A stretch of 63,276 nt of DNA, counting the filler, from Collodictyon triciliatum (lineage: Eukaryota), in the NCBI GenBank assembly GCA_043381765.1. It is 12 parts of 12 records of this genome, joined end to end, with 100 filler letters (N's around TTAATTAATTAA, not from the genome) between each part and the next. Parts side by side here need not be neighbours in the genome. Positions count along the whole stretch, not along the records: positions 28,264 to 33,812 come from JBHJMP010005121.1; 11 more parts are not named here. One strand, given 5' to 3'. Below, one piece after another: positions 21,794 through 56,582 of this stretch. The notes beneath the pieces were generated by a model. It searched no databases. It was not told the DNA's origin and saw only the letters and a list, made by a program, of their open reading frames with translations. The position numbers were made by a program, and so were the translations under genes. The stretch's first letter is position 1; each line of letters opens with the position of its first letter.

Positions 21794-22839
21794 CTACAAT
21801 TTAANNNNNNNNNNNNNNNNNNNNNNNNNNNNNNNNNNNNNNNNNNNNNNNNNNNNNNNNNNNNNNNNNNNNNNNNNNNNNNNNNNNNNNNNNNNNNNNN
21901 NNNNNNNNNNNNNNNNNNNNNNNNNNNNNNNNNNNNNNNNNNNNNNNNNNNNNNNNNNNNNNNNNNNNNNNNNNNNNNNNNNNNNNNNNNNNNNNNNNNN
22001 NNNNNNNNNNNNNAAAGTCAGCCCAGAGAAAAAGCAACGGTGAAAACGCCTCGGCACAGGGTTACTCGCCAAATCATGTAAGATAAGCAAAGAGGGGACT
22101 GACCGCTTGGAAAAGCATGACGATGACGGTTTTTTTGATCAGGTTCTGCAAGGCAAGAGGGAAGGAGTGTATCACGCCTATGCGGGAGGCTGGGTTTAGG
22201 CGTGTGTGCTCGCCCGCAGAGACCGATCCAGCAACAGAGTCAATCTCATCAACAGCCTCCTCGTCATAACCGCGCGGAACTTGCGACATACTGCGAACCT
22301 GTATAAGAGCGCACGTAACTTATTGCTTGTCCATGGATTTCCCCTTCACTATGCCATTGATTTGATTCTCAGCAAGACATCTTGACTCGCTGGTTATTGG
22401 CATAGCCGCAAGTCAGATCGAGATCGTTAGAGTTATTTGGAGGTTTTTTTTTTTTGCGACGAAAACCTCATCCTTGAATAAAACCAAAAAAAAAAAAAAA
22501 ACAAAAAAAAAANNNNNNNNNNNNNNNNNNNNNNNNNNNNNNNNNNNNNNNNNNNNTTAATTAATTAANNNNNNNNNNNNNNNNNNNNNNNNNNNNNNNN
22601 NNNNNNNNNNNNAAGTAAAAATAAAAAAAAAGTAATATTAATATATATATGATGTCAAATTTGTAGATTACTTTTTTTTTTTTTTTTTTGATAAACGAGT
22701 GTAATGCATTCTGGCTCAATAATCTTTACATGAAGCTGTGTTTTTTTTTTTTTTACTTTATTTAATTTCTGATATTATTGGCTACGGTATTTTCGTTACA
22801 CCGGGGAAAATTTCTTGGCATATTTTAGTGAGTGTGCTA

Positions 22840-27882: not shown

Positions 27883-28263
27883 CCCTGGTTTCTGGTGCGC
27901 TGCGAATCAAGCGAAACACACACTTCCAGCCGAGAGGTACATAATGGCAACAGATCGGTTAAGATGTGCCCTGAGGAGATCCGGCAAAAAAGCTGAACCC
28001 AATCAGTTCTCGTTTACCTTTCAATCTTCCAGGACTTTTTTCTTCTTCTTTTCCTTTTCCTTTCTCTTTCTTTTTCTCTTTCTCTTTCTCTTTCTCTTTC
28101 TCTTTCTCTTTCTCTTTCTCTTTCTCTTTCTCTTTCTCTTTCTCTTTCTCTTTCTCTTTCTCTNNNNNNNNNNNNNNNNNNNNNNNNNNNNNNNNNNNNN
28201 NNNNNNNTTAATTAATTAANNNNNNNNNNNNNNNNNNNNNNNNNNNNNNNNNNNNNNNNNNNN

Positions 28264-31200
28264 AAGGCAGAAATTCGTGTCATTTGTTGGTTTGTATGAG
28301 CCAAGTCTGCATGGAACACATTCACTTCCATCCTCAAACTGTCCCGGAGGGCATGTGCAAGCACCATTGAATGATATATAGGAATAAATGCATTTGCACT
28401 GATCGATTGATTGAGAGCCTTCTTTAGTTGTAGTTGAGCGTGTGGGACATGAATTGCAAGAAGAGCTTCTCTCTGAGCTGTAACTCCCTTTTGGACATGA
28501 AATGCATGATGACTGATTTAATGAACCAGTTTTATTGTTGAATGTGCCAGCTGAACACGATGTGCATGATGCTTGGCCATTTCTATCATTCCAAGTGCCT
28601 TGTGGACATTCAATGCATGATATGTTTCCATATGAGCCAGAGTTTGAGTTGAATGTGCCTTTTGGACAAGCAAAGCATGAGCTTGAGTTTTTTGGGAAGT
28701 CTTCTTCTTGATAATATCCTGGTGAACATAGGCTGCATGATGCGCTTCTTTCTGAGCTGTAGCTTCCATTGTGACATGAAACACATGATGTTTGGTTGAA
28801 TGAACCAGTTATGTTGTTGAATGTACCCGCTGGACATGATAAACATTCATCTCTTTGTTCATTACCATACGTTCCTTTCGGGCATTTAGCACATGATGAG
28901 TGGCTTGTTGATCCAAATCGTGGATTGAAAGTTCCGTCAGTACAATTAGTGCACCCAGTCTGACCAAGGTTTGCATTGTAAGAACCAGCTGGACAAAGTT
29001 CACATGTTGATTCGCCAGACTTTGATGAATATCTTCCTTTTGGACATGGTTGGCAACTGCTTACACTTGCTGACGCAACATCTGGGTTGTATGAACCGGC
29101 TGGACACTTTTCGCAAACGGTTGCTTTAGTAGAGTTTGAGTAAGTTCCTGGTTGACAGGGAGATGTTATAGATGCTCCTTTTTCTGGGGAATAAAATCCT
29201 GGTTTACTTTCTTGGCATCTCGATTGACCTTCGACTCCGCTGTAAGTACCTGGCTCACATTCTATGCATGAAGAATTTGAGGTTGCCATCAAATCCACTC
29301 CATAAGTTCCTGAAGGACACAAAGTGCAAGACTCCAATCCAAATTTGTCCCCATAAGAACCTGAAAAACATTTAATACAAGCATTGTAAAGAGAACTTGA
29401 CCTCCTGCTCGGGTTATATGTTCCAGGTACACAACTTCTACAAAATGATTGGCCTGAAAAAGGATTGTATGTACCAGCGTCGCATTCAAGACAGTCAGAT
29501 TCACTAATAGAGCTATTTTTGGTGGTATAAGTTCCAGACGGACACAAAGAACATGAATTTAGATCGTTTATATTGTAATATGTTCCCTCTGGACATGGTT
29601 TGCATTTATTCGAGAGCCAATCGAAGTATCCATATCCACAAAGATTCCAGATTTTGACAGTATTATCACCACCTCCAGAAACAATTTTTGAGCCATCCGG
29701 AGTAACAGCAACACTGTAAACATGACTAGTATGGCCGGTCAATGTGCGAATTAAAGCTCCATCAGAAAGATTCCAGATTTTGATTTTTATATCAGCACTT
29801 CCAGAAACGATTTTTGAACCATCAGGAGTGATAGCAACACTGCGAACATAATGAGTATGGTCGGTCAATGTGCGAATTAAAGCTCCATCAGAAATATTCC
29901 AAATTCTGATTGTATTATCGTAACTTCCAGACACAATTTTTGAACCATCAGGAGTAACAGCAACACTGGAAACATCGTCAGTATGACCAGTCAATGTGCG
30001 AATCAAAGCTCCATCAGAAAGATTCCAAATTTTGATTGTTTTATCCAAACTTCCAGAAACAATTTTTGAGCCATCAGGAGTAACAGCAACACTGAGAACA
30101 TCACCAGTATGACCAGTCAATGTGCGGATTAAAGTTCCATCAGAAAGATTCCATATTTTGATTGTTTTATCCAAACTTCCAGACACAATTTTTGAGCCAT
30201 CAGGAGTAACAGCAACACTGTTAACATCACTAGTATGACCAGTCAATGTGCGAATCAAAGCTCCATCAGAAAGGTTCCAAATTTTGATTGTATTATCCTC
30301 GCTTCCAGAAACAATTTTAGAGCCATCCGGAGTAACAGCAACACTGTTAACATCACTAGTATGACCAGTCAATGTGCGAATCAAAGCTCCATCAGAAAGG
30401 TTCCAAATTTTGATTGTATTATCATAGTATCCACCACCACCAGAAACAATTTTTGAGCCATCAGGAGTAACAGCAACACTGGAAACATCGTCAGTATGAC
30501 CAGTCAATGTACGAATCAAAGCTCCATCAGAAAGATTCCAGATTTTGATTTCATTATAGCTTCCAGACACAATTTTTGAGCCATCTGGAGTAACAGCAAC
30601 ATTATCAACACTAAAAGTATGACCAGTCAATGTGCGAATTAAAGCTCCATCAGAAAGATTCCAAATTTTGACAGTATTATCCCAGCTTCCAGAAACAATT
30701 TTTGAGCCATCAGGAGTAACAACAACACTGGAAATACCATGAGTATGACCTGTCAATGTGCGAATCAAAGCTCCATCAGAAAGGTTCCAAATTTTGATTG
30801 TATTATCCAAACTTCCAGACACAATTTTTGAGCCATCAGGAGTAACAGCAACACTCAAAACGGTACCAGTATGACCAGTCAATGTGCGAATCAAAGCTCC
30901 ATTTGAAATCTTCCAAATTTTGATTGTTCTATCATTACTTCCAGAAACAATTTTTGAGCCATCAGGAGTAACAGTAACACTGAAAACCCTATCAGTATGA
31001 CCATTCAATGTGCGAATCAAAGCTCCATCAGAAACATTCCAGATTTTGATTGTTCCACCTTCATAATAATCACCACTTCCAGAAACAATTTTTGAGCCAT
31101 CAGGAGTAACAGCAACGCTTTCAACACCATAGCCATGGCCGTACAATGTGCGGATTAAAGCTCCATCAGAAAGATTCCAAATTTTGATTGTATTATCAGC

Positions 31201-31713
31201 ACTTCCAGAAACAATTTTTGAGCCATCAGGAGTAACAGTAACACTGGAAACACCATCAGTATGACCAGTCAATGTGCGAATCAAAGCTCCATCAGAAAGA
31301 TTCCAGATTTTGATTGTATTATCAGCACTTCCAGAGACAATTTTGGAGCCATCAGGAGTAACAGCAACATTGTAAACATCACTATTATGACCAGTCAATG
31401 TGCGAATCAAAGCTCCATCAGAAAGGTTCCAAATTTTGATTGTATAATCTGGCCAATCATCATGGCTTCCAGAAACAATTTTTGTGCCATCAGGAGTAAC
31501 AGCAACACTGTTAACGTTACCAGGATTAGCGATGGTGTAAACTTGGTCATCTTGCCCTTCAACAAGACACAATTGGCAGTGGAGCATCAATCCTAAAGAT
31601 ATATCAATTAAAATCCTATGTAATTTGAATTTATAAAATCAGAAAAATTAAAATATCATAAATGACTAACCCAACAGCAACACAGCTGCAAACGACTTTG
31701 AGTTCAATCTCAT
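28264..31713 (-). CDS. Secreted or cell-surface protein: signal peptide + 15 highly similar WD40 repeats + Cys-rich GCC2/GCC3 (ephrin-receptor-like/TNFR-like) repeats; 3' end missing
   Basis: Exon 1 (31713-31671, MRLNSKSFAAVLLL-G) splices over a 78-nt GTTAGT...TTTAG intron (31670-31593) in frame to GLMLHCQLCLVEG-QDD. WD40 array is at about 31545-29641, followed by about 23 CxxCxxG[T/S][Y/F] modules that run to the scaffold end with no stop codon. Confidence 0.9.
29641..31545 (-). repeat. Coding tandem repeat with a roughly 126-bp unit, 15 copies (WD40)
   Basis: The DNA unit ...ATGACCAGTCAATGTGCGAATCAAAGCTCCATCAGAAAG... recurs about every 126 nt. Protein consensus: ALIRTLTGHxxxVxSVAVTPDGSKIVSGSxDxTIKIWNLSDG. 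Confidence 0.95.
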
Positions 31714-50576: not shown

Positions 50577-50842
50577 CTGGCAATACATTAAGGTACAATG
50601 TAATATTAGTAAAAAAGAAGATAAAAAAAGAAGATAAAAAAAGAAGATAAAAAAAGAAGATAAAAAAAGAAGATAAAAAAAGAAGATAAAAAAAGAAGAT
50701 AAAAAAAGAAGATAAAAAAAGAAGATAAAAAAAGAAGATAAANNNNNNNNNNNNNNNNNNNNNNNNNNNNNNNNNNNNNNNNNNNNTTAATTAATTAANN
50801 NNNNNNNNNNNNNNNNNNNNNNNNNNNNNNNNNNNNNNNNNN

Positions 50843-56266: not shown

Positions 56267-56582
56267 AAAACTATAAAACTATAAAACTATAAAACTATAA
56301 AACTATAAAACTATAAAACTATAAAACTATAAAACTATAAAACTATAAAACTATAAAACTATAAAACTATAAAACTATAAAANNNNNNNNNNNNNNNNNN
56401 NNNNNNNNNNNNNNNNNNNNNNNNNNTTAATTAATTAANNNNNNNNNNNNNNNNNNNNNNNNNNNNNNNNNNNNNNNNNNNNTAAAAAACCAATAAAAAA
56501 CCAATAAAAAACCAATAAAAAACCAATAAAAAACCAATAAAAAACCAATAAAAAACCAATAAAAAACCAATAAAAACCAAAA
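56267..56582. repeat. Scaffold-terminal microsatellites (AAAACTAT)n and (TAAAAAACCAA)n on either side of a linker
   Basis: Direct reading of the sequence. Confidence 0.9.

What the first reader, a model, noticed from the sequence alone, without database searches (positions are those of the whole stretch)
29641..31420. Variation in the WD40 repeats is confined to two surface patches, the positions known to be hypervariable in HET-E/HET-D
Seen in sequence: the framework ALIRTLTGH...SVAVTPDGSKIVSG...TIKIWNLSDG is almost invariant. Residues after GH vary widely (NSDVY, TDGVS, GYGVE, TDRVF, TGTVL, THGIS, TFSVD, TDDVS, TSDVN, TGDVL, THYVR, TSHVY). Residues flanking the structural Asp also vary (ADN, NDR, LDN, WDN, EDN, LDK, YDN, ADI, GDN). 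Established: in HET-E/HET-D WD40 repeats the positively selected codons lie just after the GH dipeptide and around SGSxDx, on the propeller top face. Fifteen blades fit a 7+8 double propeller as in Apaf-1. Inference: the framework evolves concertedly while the ligand-binding surface is under diversifying selection.
Basis: partly seen in the sequence, partly recalled or inferred. Interest (0 to 1): 0.75.

Follow-up and report, generated by a model that had tools for sequence, protein, structure and literature searches.

The report
Hypervariable WD40 propellers on a secreted stalk
A gene from an unidentified eukaryote, probably a protist, encodes fifteen near-identical WD40 blades that differ almost only at binding-face residues, a pattern known from fungal and bacterial immune-type receptors, but here the blades appear to sit on a secreted, cysteine-rich stalk.

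Summary
On the minus strand, 14 full 42-codon WD40 units plus one degenerate N-terminal unit share a framework with 20 of 42 columns invariant. High diversity is confined to codons 13, 14, 16 and 32, with 34 next.

- My own codon models reject neutrality (M2a/M1a p=1e-7; M8/M7 p=7e-9; three trees). Only codons 16 and 32 fall in the omega>1 class; 13, 14 and 34 are compatible with neutrality.
- In the AlphaFold model the variable codons lie in the d-a loop, at the start of strand a and in the b-c turn.
- Fold matches suggest 8+7 blades, not 7+8.
- The same columns vary most in 29 bacterial and fungal repetitive WD40 proteins, so the pattern is typical of the family and already published (PMC1805685, PMC5587647). 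This scan had noted it before in bacterial arrays.

The new element is context. There is no NACHT. A putative signal-peptide exon lies upstream, 13 of 15 blades carry an N-x-S sequon, and at least 11 Ephrin_rec_like repeats follow in the same frame. I found no protein with this architecture. The window concatenates unplaced contigs, and the gene is cut off at its contig end.

The parts
28264..33812 (.). The contig that carries the gene (5549 bp, GC 0.335). The window is a chain of 12 unplaced contigs sorted by size and joined by N44-TTAATTAATTAA-N44 linkers, so genes outside 28264-33812 are not neighbours.
31671..31713 (-). Putative exon 1: ATG plus 14 codons and 1 base. It encodes two basic residues followed by a hydrophobic run (start of a signal-peptide-like segment).
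   Evidence: Read by eye. In the enumeration of 28 in-frame ATG..GT/AG models this one has the best donor (GTTAGT) and acceptor (TTTAG). No RNA support.
31593..31670 (-). Putative 78-nt GT..AG intron, phase 1
   Evidence: inferred from sequence only
28264..31592 (-). Exon 2: an open frame of 1109 codons that runs off the contig end, so the C-terminus is missing
31420..31545 (-). U00, a degenerate first WD40 unit with a shortened d strand and d-a loop and a +4 insertion in the b-c turn
29638..31419 (-). U01-U14, fourteen full 42-codon WD40 units with mean pairwise amino-acid identity 0.817. Hypervariable codons 13, 14, 16, 32 (and 34) of each unit. N-x-S/T sequon at codons 40-42 in 13 of the 15 units (U00 included).
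30526..31533 (-). Predicted N-terminal 8-bladed propeller (model residues 19-354; U00-U07 plus the d strand of U08)
   Evidence: AlphaFold model. Eight-bladed chains 5naf_B, 6g6m, 5nnz_A and 7t1z_B align 312-326 residues to model 19..351/354 at rmsd 1.2-1.6.
29632..30498 (-). Predicted C-terminal 7-bladed propeller (model residues 364-652; U08-U14)
   Evidence: Seven-bladed 7bie_A aligns 280 residues to model 364..652 at rmsd 1.0
28264..29628 (-). At least 11 Ephrin_rec_like (PF07699) cysteine-rich repeats, the predicted extracellular stalk, truncated by the contig end
   Evidence: Pfam E 4.8e-66, 11 stretches. Closest solved chain is 8tx1_A, mastigoneme protein Mst1, E 1.8e-31.
31714..33812 (-). 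2.1 kb of AT-rich upstream DNA without a long ORF or Pfam match: no NACHT, NB-ARC or HET exon
   Evidence: Longest stop-to-stop frame is 69 codons. The 11 frames of 35-69 codons I submitted (8 minus-strand, 3 plus-strand) have no real Pfam match at E<=1; the only hit is a chance-level viral E7R at E 0.07, 13.7 bits against a cut-off of 27.

Best explanation
This is a eukaryotic gene, probably from a protist, for a secreted or surface-anchored recognition protein.

Predicted architecture: a signal peptide (putative 43-nt first exon plus the hydrophobic start of exon 2), then two WD40 propellers built from 15 recently amplified, near-identical blades (8+7 in the model), then a stalk of at least 11 Ephrin_rec_like cysteine-rich repeats. 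The rest is lost at the contig end.

Proposed mechanism: each blade keeps the folding framework (H11, S29, D33, W39 and the four strands) under purifying selection. The residues that line the top face differ from blade to blade: d-a loop codons 13 and 14, the second residue of strand a (codon 16), and b-c turn codons 32 and 34 together with the length of that turn. At least codons 16 and 32 are driven apart by diversifying selection. Exchange of segments between units reshuffles framework variants. The per-blade N-x-S sequon lies at the end of strand c and the c-d loop, which I assign to the bottom face, so glycans would leave the binding face free.

Proposed function: binding of variable external ligands, such as prey, microbes, kin or mates.

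Shown: the repeats, the variable columns, the omega>1 signal, the strand and loop placement, and the continuous frame into the stalk.

Inferred: the splice and signal peptide, secretion, glycosylation, the 8+7 split, and ligand binding.
For: Repeats and variable columns.

Selection:
- Framework pS 0.201 and pN 0.050; pN at the four variable codons 0.606.
- M1a -704.85 against M2a -688.96: LRT 31.8, p=1.3e-7, omega2=10, 4.8% of sites.
- M7 -712.35 against M8 -693.54: LRT 37.6, p=6.8e-9.
- Same result on a framework-only tree (LRT 72.7) and a star tree (LRT 73.9).
- Codons 16 and 32 have posterior >=0.99 every time.
- Tree-free minimum-change count: 24 amino-acid changes per 9.8 non-synonymous sites against 25 synonymous changes per 30.4 synonymous sites, p=1.6e-4.
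- 13 distinct four-residue combinations in 14 units.

Structure:
- AlphaFold mean pLDDT 88.6.
- DSSP puts codons 13 and 14 in the d-a loop (0-1 of 15 units in strand), codon 16 in strand a (15 of 15), and codons 32 and 34 in the b-c turn (0-1 of 15).
- Paoletti 2007, section 10, places these two loops on the top interaction face.
- Best fold match is 2ymu_A (E 2.7e-60, 44% identity). Sequence match to 2ymu_A is E 2.9e-194.
- The 8+7 split rests.

Family-wide pattern: of the 29 homologues with internal identity >=0.6, columns 32, 14, 16, 13 and 34 are among the five most variable in 29, 28, 24, 23 and 18 proteins.

Extracellular reading:
- In-frame ATG exon with a GTTAGT...TTTAG intron.
- No Pfam domain in the upstream 2.1 kb.
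- The stalk matches PF07699 and the extracellular mastigoneme protein Mst1.
- Relatives of the stalk carry other propellers (RCC1, Kelch, NHL) or lectin-type domains in front of it.
- The sequon at codons 40-42 occurs in 13 of 15 units here against 16 of 747 homologue units.

Weak hint that the gene or a close copy is expressed: one freshwater metatranscriptome holds 43 contigs laid on 28264-29700. Five are >=99% alike and one 151-nt piece has no differences. DNA carry-over in that library is not excluded.
Against: - Only 2 of the 5 variable codons pass as omega>1. Codons 13, 14 and 34 fit near-neutral change.
- The data set is 14 units of one gene. Trees of 126 nt are poorly resolved (bootstraps 13-86). 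Synonymous homoplasy (alpha up to 90 at codons 28, 40, 22; 24 of 66 incompatible site pairs) shows that a single tree is violated, and that is known to inflate site-model tests.
- My codon-model code is home-made, with branch lengths fixed from M0 apart from one scale factor. It is not PAML or HyPhy.
- Model coordinates could not be read, so 'top face' rests on loop identity plus published topology, not on measured exposure.
- The signal peptide depends on an unverified splice. 28 in-frame models exist, and the unspliced ATG at 31587 gives no signal peptide. No signal-peptide predictor was available.
- WD40 domains are overwhelmingly cytoplasmic (from my own knowledge), and these blades have no disulfides.
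- The contig is a 5.5-kb unplaced piece. A 126-bp array at 84% identity may be collapsed or mis-ordered by assembly, so the count of 15 and the 8+7 split are uncertain.
- The C-terminus is missing, so anchor and signalling parts are unknown.
- No paralogue or orthologue was found: best 61% identity among 515 metagenome relatives and at most 64% among the listed best hits of three protein searches.
Confidence: 0.6

Rival explanations
1. Recent amplification with relaxed constraint only. The propellers were amplified from one blade not long ago. The loop residues are simply the least constrained positions of any WD40 blade and drift neutrally, while the framework is held by folding. On this reading there is no adaptive diversification and no recognition repertoire.
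For: - The same columns are the most variable in 29 unrelated repetitive WD40 proteins. Hu 2017 (PMC5587647, section 11 read) reads repetitive WD40s as young proteins.
- Codons 13, 14 and 34 have beta 0.8-2.2, not or barely different from 1.
- Recombination among units can inflate site-model tests.
Against: - Codons 16 and 32 have beta 11.7 (p=4e-9) and 6.6 (p=6e-4) against the gene-wide synonymous rate.
- The omega>1 class is kept on three different trees, including a star tree.
- pN at the four variable codons is three times the framework pS.
- 8 and 7 different residues occur in 14 units at these codons.
Confidence: 0.25
2. A cytoplasmic HET-E/Apaf-1-like NLR sensor whose NTPase part lies outside this contig. 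The apparent signal exon would be spurious.
For: - The nearest WD40 relatives include fungal NACHT-WD proteins and bacterial STAND-type proteins, and a Reticulomyxa filosa NB-ARC protein at 59% identity.
- The contig ends 2.2 kb upstream of the repeats.
- The splice is unverified.
Against: - The repeats continue, in the same open frame and without a stop, into 11 Ephrin_rec_like repeats. The closest solved relative of that part is an extracellular ciliary hair protein. NLR sensors end with their repeats (from my own knowledge).
- The 2.1 kb upstream has no frame longer than 69 codons, and none of the 11 frames of 35-69 codons I submitted has a real Pfam match; the only hit at E<=1 is a chance-level viral E7R at E 0.07.
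- A sequon on 13 of 15 blades is rare in cytoplasmic homologues: 16 of 747 units.
Confidence: 0.05
3. Assembly artefact or pseudogene. The array is a collapsed or chimeric reconstruction of reads from several paralogous genes (or from a contaminant), so the set of 15 units never exists in one protein.
For: - The window is a chain of small unplaced contigs whose ends mostly break in simple repeats.
- The metatranscriptome holds many contigs 85-95% alike to the stalk, so related copies exist.
- There is no adjacency signal among units (Mantel p=0.24).
Against: - The frame is open for 1109 codons through all 15 units and the stalk.
- AlphaFold folds the whole array with pLDDT 88.6.
- Units differ by 2.7-15% in the framework, which is enough for unique placement of reads longer than a unit.
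- Even if the order were wrong, the column pattern would stand.
Confidence: 0.1

Closest known systems
WRAP, the highly repetitive WD40 double propeller of Nostoc punctiforme (PDB 2YMU), and designed WRAP-T propellers (7BIE, 7BIG)
   Same: Best structural and sequence match: Foldseek E 2.7e-60, 44% identity; VIA Z 48.4 over 569 residues; phmmer E 2.9e-194. Same 42-residue unit, near-identical blades and tandem propellers.
   Different: WRAP has 14 blades and belongs to a bacterial STAND-ATPase context (Pereira and Lupas 2022, PMC9218822, passages read). Here there are 15 blades, a eukaryotic intron-bearing gene model, no NTPase, a predicted signal peptide, a cysteine-rich stalk and a sequon on each blade.
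HET-E / HET-D / NWD NACHT-WD40 proteins of Podospora anserina
   Same: Highly conserved 42-residue WD units. Four hypervariable codons in two pairs around a conserved residue, in the d-a loop and the b-c turn. Positive selection and repeat exchange (PMC1805685 sections 9 and 10 read; PMC4986451 passages read). Columns 14/16 and 32/34 here correspond; 13 distinct combinations occur in 14 units.
   Different: No HET or NACHT domain. Only codons 16 and 32 are significant here. The protein is predicted extracellular. The organism is not shown to be a fungus. No family of paralogues or allelic repeat-number variation could be examined.
CRINKLY4 receptor-kinase ectodomain (plant)
   Same: An extracellular beta-propeller followed directly by a cysteine-rich TNFR-like domain (bioRxiv 10.1101/2020.08.10.245050, abstract and passages read). 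The order of parts resembles the one predicted here.
   Different: The CR4 propeller is BLIP-II-like with one disulfide per blade and is not internally repetitive. Here it is a true PF00400 WD40 without cysteines, doubled and hypervariable. A transmembrane helix and kinase cannot be checked because the contig ends.
Protist proteins with an N-terminal binding domain on an Ephrin_rec_like stalk (for example Chlamydomonas mastigoneme protein Mst1, PDB 8TX1; RCC1-, Kelch- or NHL-Ephrin_rec_like proteins of Percolomonas, Anaeramoeba and metagenomes)
   Same: The stalk is 31-39% identical over 80-99% of its length. It matches Mst1 at E 1.8e-31. The layout is the same: a propeller or lectin-like head in front of many PF07699 repeats.
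   Different: None of the 120 listed relatives of the stalk carries PF00400. Among the 120 longer proteins listed, the rows are WD-only or stalk-only by query coverage and by the (cut-off) Pfam lists. Of the best 150 of 366,983 representatives, only P0264 spans the WD-stalk junction, and it has no Pfam WD40.
Apaf-1 WD40 region (PDB 3SFZ)
   Same: Fifteen WD40 blades in two propellers. Foldseek rank 19, E 2.5e-37; phmmer E 8.8e-65.
   Different: TMq is only 0.39. The order here is 8 then 7; the Apaf-1 order of 7 then 8 is recalled, not tested. There is no NB-ARC, and Apaf-1 blades are not near-identical.

Membership tests
WD40 repeat beta-propeller (PF00400) | Pfam profile match above the gathering score, in repeated units | tested here: met
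   523.9 bits against a cut-off of 27, 15 stretches
WD40 repeat beta-propeller (PF00400) | Four-stranded blades closing into propellers | tested here: met
   AlphaFold pLDDT 88.6, 59 strands. Z 44-49 to WDR5, G-beta and WRAP-T.
WD40 repeat beta-propeller (PF00400) | D-H-S/T-W hydrogen-bond tetrad residues (Hu 2017 introduction) | tested here: met
   H11, S29 and W39 in 14 of 14 full units; D33 in 13 of 14
Highly repetitive (recently amplified) WD40 proteins, WRAP type | High internal identity of the repeats (Hu 2017 used 0.7; Pereira and Lupas 2022 used 60%) | tested here: met
   Mean 0.817 among 14 units. Their measures may be computed differently.
Highly repetitive (recently amplified) WD40 proteins, WRAP type | Diversity concentrated at top-face hotspot positions | tested here: met
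HET-E/NWD fungal NLRs | NACHT NTPase (and HET or another effector domain) N-terminal to the repeats | tested here: not met
   No such Pfam match in the ORF or in the 11 upstream frames of 35-69 codons that I submitted. A short hydrophobic exon lies directly upstream. Limit: the contig ends 2.2 kb upstream.
HET-E/NWD fungal NLRs | Positive selection at the two codon pairs flanking V and D | tested here: inconclusive
   Codons 16 and 32 significant; 14 and 34 not
HET-E/NWD fungal NLRs | Concerted evolution across a gene family and repeat-number polymorphism between strains | not testable with these tools
   No genome is held. No paralogue was found.
Apaf-1-type apoptosome sensor | NB-ARC domain followed by a 7-bladed then an 8-bladed propeller | tested here: not met
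   No NB-ARC. Fold matches put 8 blades first and 7 second. The blade order is inferred from aligned ranges, not from coordinates.
Ephrin_rec_like stalk proteins of the cell surface (Mst1-like) | Tandem PF07699 cysteine-rich repeats | tested here: met
   11 stretches, E 4.8e-66; 8tx1_A E 1.8e-31
Ephrin_rec_like stalk proteins of the cell surface (Mst1-like) | Entry into the secretory pathway (signal peptide) | tested here: inconclusive
   A hydrophobic N-terminus appears only with an unverified 78-nt intron. No predictor and no RNA reads at the 5' end.
CRINKLY4-type ectodomain | Disulfide-stabilised BLIP-II-like propeller plus CRD, transmembrane helix and kinase | tested here: not met
   The blades are true WD40. 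Within the repeat units the only cysteine is the last residue of U14. The transmembrane helix and kinase cannot be tested because the contig ends at 28264.

The most novel reading that the evidence does not exclude
A protist has taken the self-diversifying WD40 recognition module, so far described only in cytoplasmic NLR-type receptors of fungi and bacteria, and mounted it outside the cell on a glycosylated cysteine-rich stalk. Its 15 blades would act as a cassette set, reshuffled by exchange within and between genes and selected for new binding faces. The gene would belong to a family of such variable surface receptors used to tell prey, microbes, kin or mates apart. That would make it a WD40-based counterpart of variable surface receptor repertoires built from other repeat types.
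Probability: 0.3. Interest if true: 0.75.

Novelty: new variant of a known kind. Interest (0 to 1): 0.55.

Why it matters
Near-identical WD40 blades with hypervariable contact residues are the hallmark of fungal allorecognition NLRs and of bacterial STAND/NLR-like proteins. In all described cases the module sits at the C-terminal end of a cytoplasmic NTPase switch. Here the same module, with the same variable columns and a signal of diversifying selection, appears in a eukaryote without any NTPase. It lies behind a likely signal peptide and in front of an extracellular-type stalk.

If the gene model holds, this recognition module works in a different cell compartment and signalling logic. It would also give a tractable case of an extracellular true WD40 propeller, which is rare. 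A sequon on nearly every blade is a concrete, testable adaptation.

If the gene model fails, the finding reduces to one more member of a published class.

Tried and rejected
- **Whole-genome context.** No genome is held for this window, so paralogues could not be collected. tblastn of the window with two units and the stalk found nothing outside the gene: 15 of 15 hits lie inside it.
- **Neighbouring genes.** I set them aside once the window proved to be a chain of separate contigs. The ankyrin, carrier and transporter ORFs are on other contigs.
- **Paralogues or orthologues for a larger dN/dS set.**
  - Three protein searches. The best 120 of each are listed, and only the roughly 8000 candidates sharing most words were scored: 7841 hits, best 60% identity; 1704 hits to the stalk, best 39%; 701 longer proteins, best 64% over three units.
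  - One metagenome scan: 515 relatives, best 61%.
  - One exhaustive representative search.
  - None is close enough to count as the same repeat family. No self-hit appeared.
- **ESM Atlas.** Only generic WD40 clusters at 0.82, below the level taken as evidence.
- **Sequencing runs.** One run was listed, with a 0.06 share of words. I laid it only on 28264-29700, because the tool turns away long repeats and I did not send the array. The 5' exon and the splice therefore remain untested. Bins 28792-29223 had no cover, which proves nothing.
- **Distance-dependent incompatibility (PHI-like) and adjacency of similar units (Mantel).** Neither was significant (p=0.80 and 0.24). Recombination is therefore suggested only by the amount of homoplasy, not by its spatial pattern.
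- **FEL with a free per-site synonymous rate.** Only codon 16 was significant (p=7e-4). Codon 32 lost significance (p=0.52) because its own alpha was fitted high.
- **First FEL script.** It crashed on a numerical overflow and was rerun with bounds.
- **Model coordinates.** They are not available to scripts, so exposure and face clustering were not measured.
- **Literature searches for the architecture.**
  - 'Ephrin_rec_like' with 'WD40' gave one irrelevant paper.
  - 'extracellular WD40', 'secreted WD40', 'WD40 ectodomain' and 'signal peptide WD40' gave two papers: CRINKLY4 and a cyanobacterial review.
  - These two searches are my only basis for saying I found the fusion nowhere in print. 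Supplements of the cited papers were not read, including the data sets of Hu 2017, which may list protist repetitive WD40 proteins.


Full report
**What is in the window**

The window is not one stretch of a chromosome. It holds 11 linkers of the form N44-TTAATTAATTAA-N44, spaced 5639-5652 bases apart. They separate 12 pieces whose lengths fall steadily from 5556 to 5539 bases, with the last piece cut at 1155. Most pieces end in microsatellites. This is a chain of unplaced contigs.

The finding lies on the piece 28264-33812 (5549 bp, GC 0.335). Only that piece is its context. The ankyrin, mitochondrial-carrier and transporter ORFs elsewhere in the window are not neighbours. No whole genome is held.

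**The observation**

A minus-strand frame is open from 31638 to the contig end at 28264. Tandem Repeats Finder reports one array at 29640-31515, period 126, 14.7 copies, 84% matches. Pfam finds WD40 in 15 stretches (E 2.9e-163), followed by Ephrin_rec_like in 11 stretches (E 4.8e-66).

Splitting the translation gives 14 full 42-residue units (U01-U14, 31419-29638) and a degenerate first unit U00.

Across the 14 full units:
- 20 of 42 columns are invariant.
- 17 columns carry 2-3 residues.
- Five columns carry 5-8 residues: 13, 14, 16, 32, 34.
- Entropies are 2.38, 2.36, 2.81, 2.65 and 1.70 bits for those five, against at most 0.95 elsewhere.

Four columns hold 313 of 696 amino-acid-different pairs. 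They also hold 24 of 50 minimum amino-acid changes. All four length changes sit in the b-c turn.

**Is it selection?**

Nei-Gojobori counts give framework pS 0.201 and pN 0.050, and pN 0.606 at codons 13, 14, 16 and 32. That is three times the framework synonymous divergence.

PAML and HyPhy are not installed, so I wrote a Goldman-Yang codon model (F3x4). Branch lengths were fitted under M0 on an IQ-TREE topology and then scaled.
- M0 omega is 0.31.
- M2a beats M1a by LRT 31.8 (p=1.3e-7), with 4.8% of sites at omega 10.
- M8 beats M7 by LRT 37.6 (p=6.8e-9).
- A tree built from framework columns only gives LRT 72.7, and a star tree gives 73.9.

In every run only codons 16 and 32 enter the omega>1 class (posterior >=0.99). 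Per-site fits against the gene-wide synonymous rate:

| Codon | beta | p |
|---|---|---|
| 16 | 11.7 | 4e-9 |
| 32 | 6.6 | 6e-4 |
| 13 | 2.2 | 0.048 |
| 14 | 1.8 | 0.11 |
| 34 | 0.8 | 0.67 |

With a free per-site synonymous rate only codon 16 stays significant. A tree-free count gives 24 changes per 9.8 non-synonymous sites at the four codons against 25 per 30.4 synonymous sites (p=1.6e-4).

Caveats:
- The data are 14 short units from one gene.
- Tree support is poor.
- Some synonymous sites need very high rates on the tree (alpha 16-90 at codons 22, 40, 28), and 24 of 66 pairs of informative framework sites show all four gametes. The units are therefore mosaics, and a single tree is wrong, which is known to inflate such tests.

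My reading is that diversifying selection is well supported at one codon in each patch and is open for the rest.

**Concerted evolution**

Framework dS of 0.23 with dN/dS near 0.25 shows purifying selection. The homoplasy suggests exchange between units. I found no distance dependence (PHI-like p=0.80) and no tendency of neighbouring units to be more alike (Mantel p=0.24). Without paralogues or orthologues, conversion cannot be told apart from a recent burst of duplication.

**Where the variable residues sit**

I made an AlphaFold2 model of the 666 residues from the ATG at 31587, using 43 homologues as the alignment. Mean pLDDT is 88.6. Values are low only at residues 1-22 and 652-666, and dip to 68-84 at 320-400.

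DSSP on the model places the parts of each unit as follows:

| Element | Columns |
|---|---|
| strand d | 4-9 |
| d-a loop | 10-14 |
| strand a | 15-20 |
| strand b | 26-31 |
| b-c turn | 32-35 |
| strand c | 36-40 |

So columns 13 and 14 lie in the d-a loop, column 16 is the second residue of strand a, and columns 32 and 34 lie in the b-c turn, in essentially all 15 units. Paoletti 2007 (PMC1805685, section 10 read) states that exactly these two loops carry the selected pairs (their codons 7/9 and 25/27) on the top interaction platform. Their conserved codons 8 and 26 match V15 and D33 here; that mapping is my inference. I could not read coordinates, so exposure was not measured.

**Blade arrangement**

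The best fold match is 2YMU, the 'highly repetitive propeller' of Nostoc (Foldseek E 2.7e-60). In the VIA-align second look:
- Eight-bladed chains (TBLR1 5naf_B, Tako8 6g6m, ODA16 5nnz_A, Fbw7 7t1z_B) align 312-326 residues to model 19..351/354.
- The seven-bladed nvWRAP-T (7bie_A) aligns 280 residues to model 364..652.

This indicates 8 blades followed by 7, with the boundary at U07/U08, the two units with a deletion and an insertion and with lower pLDDT. Several seven-bladed chains span 14..650 with about 290 aligned residues. That would fit the N-terminal strand closing the last blade, but that strand has pLDDT under 50, so I leave it open. Apaf-1 matches only loosely (TMq 0.39).

**The pattern is typical of the family**

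I built a 42-column HMM from the 14 units and cut the 120 best protein hits into units. That gave 747 clean units from 102 proteins; 56 proteins have at least 7 units, and 29 have internal identity >=0.6. In those 29 proteins, columns 32, 14, 16, 13 and 34 are among the five most variable in 29, 28, 24, 23 and 18 proteins; no other column exceeds 5.

Published accounts agree:
- Hu 2017 (PMC5587647, section 11 read) reports that repetitive WD40 proteins are conserved except at predicted hotspot sites. Of 305 such proteins, half come from bacteria, 36% from fungi, and none from animals or plants.
- Dyrka 2014 (PMC4986451, passages read) describes the same for fungal NLRs.
- Earlier notes of this scan describe the pattern in bacterial NLR-like arrays (not re-tested here).

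So the hypervariability itself is known.

**What differs: the context**

*No NTPase.* The ORF has only WD40 and Ephrin_rec_like matches. The 2.1 kb upstream has no frame over 69 codons, and the 11 frames of 35-69 codons I submitted give no real Pfam match at E<=1; the only hit is a chance-level viral E7R at E 0.07.

*A likely signal peptide.* An ATG at 31713 opens 14 codons and one base. It is followed by GTTAGT and, 78 bases on, TTTAG at 31593, which joins in phase to the long frame. Of 28 in-frame ATG..GT/AG models, the three most hydrophobic all start at this ATG, and this one has the best splice signals. The unspliced start at 31587 gives no hydrophobic N-terminus. The joined N-terminus has two basic residues, about 19 mostly hydrophobic residues, and small residues at -3 and -1 before the first blade. 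It looks like a signal peptide, but I had no predictor and no RNA reads there.

*A sequon on nearly every blade.* The usual W-D at the end of strand c is W-N here, followed by x-S, which gives an N-x-S sequon in 13 of 15 units. It occurs in 16 of 747 homologue units.

*An extracellular-type stalk.*
- The stalk's nearest solved relative is the mastigoneme protein Mst1 (8tx1_A, E 1.8e-31).
- Its nearest sequence relatives (31-39% identity) are protist and some bivalve proteins that put RCC1, Kelch, NHL, discoidin or TIG domains in front of the same repeats.
- None of the 120 listed stalk relatives has PF00400.
- Among the 120 longer proteins listed, coverage is either about 33% (three WD units) or 61-97% (stalk), so each row looks like WD only or stalk only; the Pfam lists of the WD-type rows are cut off in the output.
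- In an exhaustive search of 1.84 billion representatives with a query spanning the junction, the best 150 of 366,983 hits match one side only. The exception is P0264, which has no Pfam WD40 and only a weak WD-like segment before a similar C-x-Y-G junction.
- Two literature searches found no description of the fusion.
- The nearest published arrangement is the CRINKLY4 ectodomain, a propeller plus a cysteine-rich domain, but its propeller is BLIP-II-like and disulfide-stabilised (bioRxiv 10.1101/2020.08.10.245050, passages read).

**Expression and relatives**

One public run, a freshwater metatranscriptome, shares 6% of the sampled words. Laid on 28264-29700 it gives 43 contigs: 5 at >=99% likeness (one 151-nt piece, 29402-29552, without a difference), 9 at 95-99%, 16 at 90-95% and 13 below 90%. 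This hints that the gene or a very close copy is present in an RNA library, and that related copies exist. DNA carry-over is not excluded.

**Verdict**

The interpretation needs four changes:
- Selection is shown at two codons, not at all variable ones.
- Concerted evolution is not shown.
- The blade split is 8+7.
- The protein is not an NLR.

My best explanation is a secreted or surface recognition protein whose double WD40 head carries a diversified binding face. I hold the variable-face part with high confidence and the extracellular part with moderate confidence. It is a new variant of a known kind. The main risks are the unverified splice, possible mis-assembly of the array on a small unplaced contig, and the missing C-terminus.

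Noticed in passing
whole window; linkers at 5557-5656, 11209-11308, 16861-16960, 22513-22612, 28164-28263, 33813-33912, 39459-39558, 45101-45200, 50743-50842, 56383-56482, 62022-62121: The window is a chain of 12 unplaced contigs in descending size order, joined by N44-TTAATTAATTAA-N44 (a six-frame stop linker). Any first-stage finding that relies on gene neighbourhood across these points is invalid.
   Followed up: yes
contig ends, e.g. 28056-28163 (TTTCTC x18), 33913-33990 (GTTTTT repeats), 5657-5952 (TTCTTCTTTT x31), 62147-62667: Most contigs begin or end in long AT-rich microsatellites with periods of 3-15. The assembly evidently breaks at simple repeats, and the genome seems very rich in them.
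   Followed up: partly
window 42886-45100 (+), on another contig: An ORF of about 738 codons made almost entirely of ankyrin repeats (Ank_2 E 7e-96). It runs into the contig end. Tandem Repeats Finder at score >=300 does not report it as a DNA-level array, so it is not as internally conserved as the WD40 array.
   Followed up: partly
window 31407-31586 (-), frame +1 relative to the WD40 frame: The shifted frame over the first blades reads as a Met followed by a leucine-rich hydrophobic run that also looks like a signal peptide. It is a by-product of the repeat's codons (GTT GCT GTT ACT CCT GAT read one base off) and was not used in the gene model.
   Followed up: partly
P0264 residues 302-400 (4107-aa metagenome protein): In front of its 37 Ephrin_rec_like repeats it has a weakly WD-like segment and the same C-x-Y-G-aromatic junction as the window's protein. 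It may be a divergent propeller-on-stalk relative. Pfam sees no WD40 in it.
   Followed up: partly
P0246 (Reticulomyxa filosa NB-ARC protein) and P0306 (Stentor coeruleus): Protists also carry repetitive WD40 arrays up to 59% identical to this one, in at least one case with an NB-ARC domain. So the classical NLR-type context exists in protists alongside the stalk context seen here.
   Followed up: no
window 35231-38047 (+), on another contig: A 938-codon frame rich in Ser, Gln and Pro with (QS)n runs, no Pfam match, interrupted by a 585-N gap at 37423-38007.
   Followed up: no
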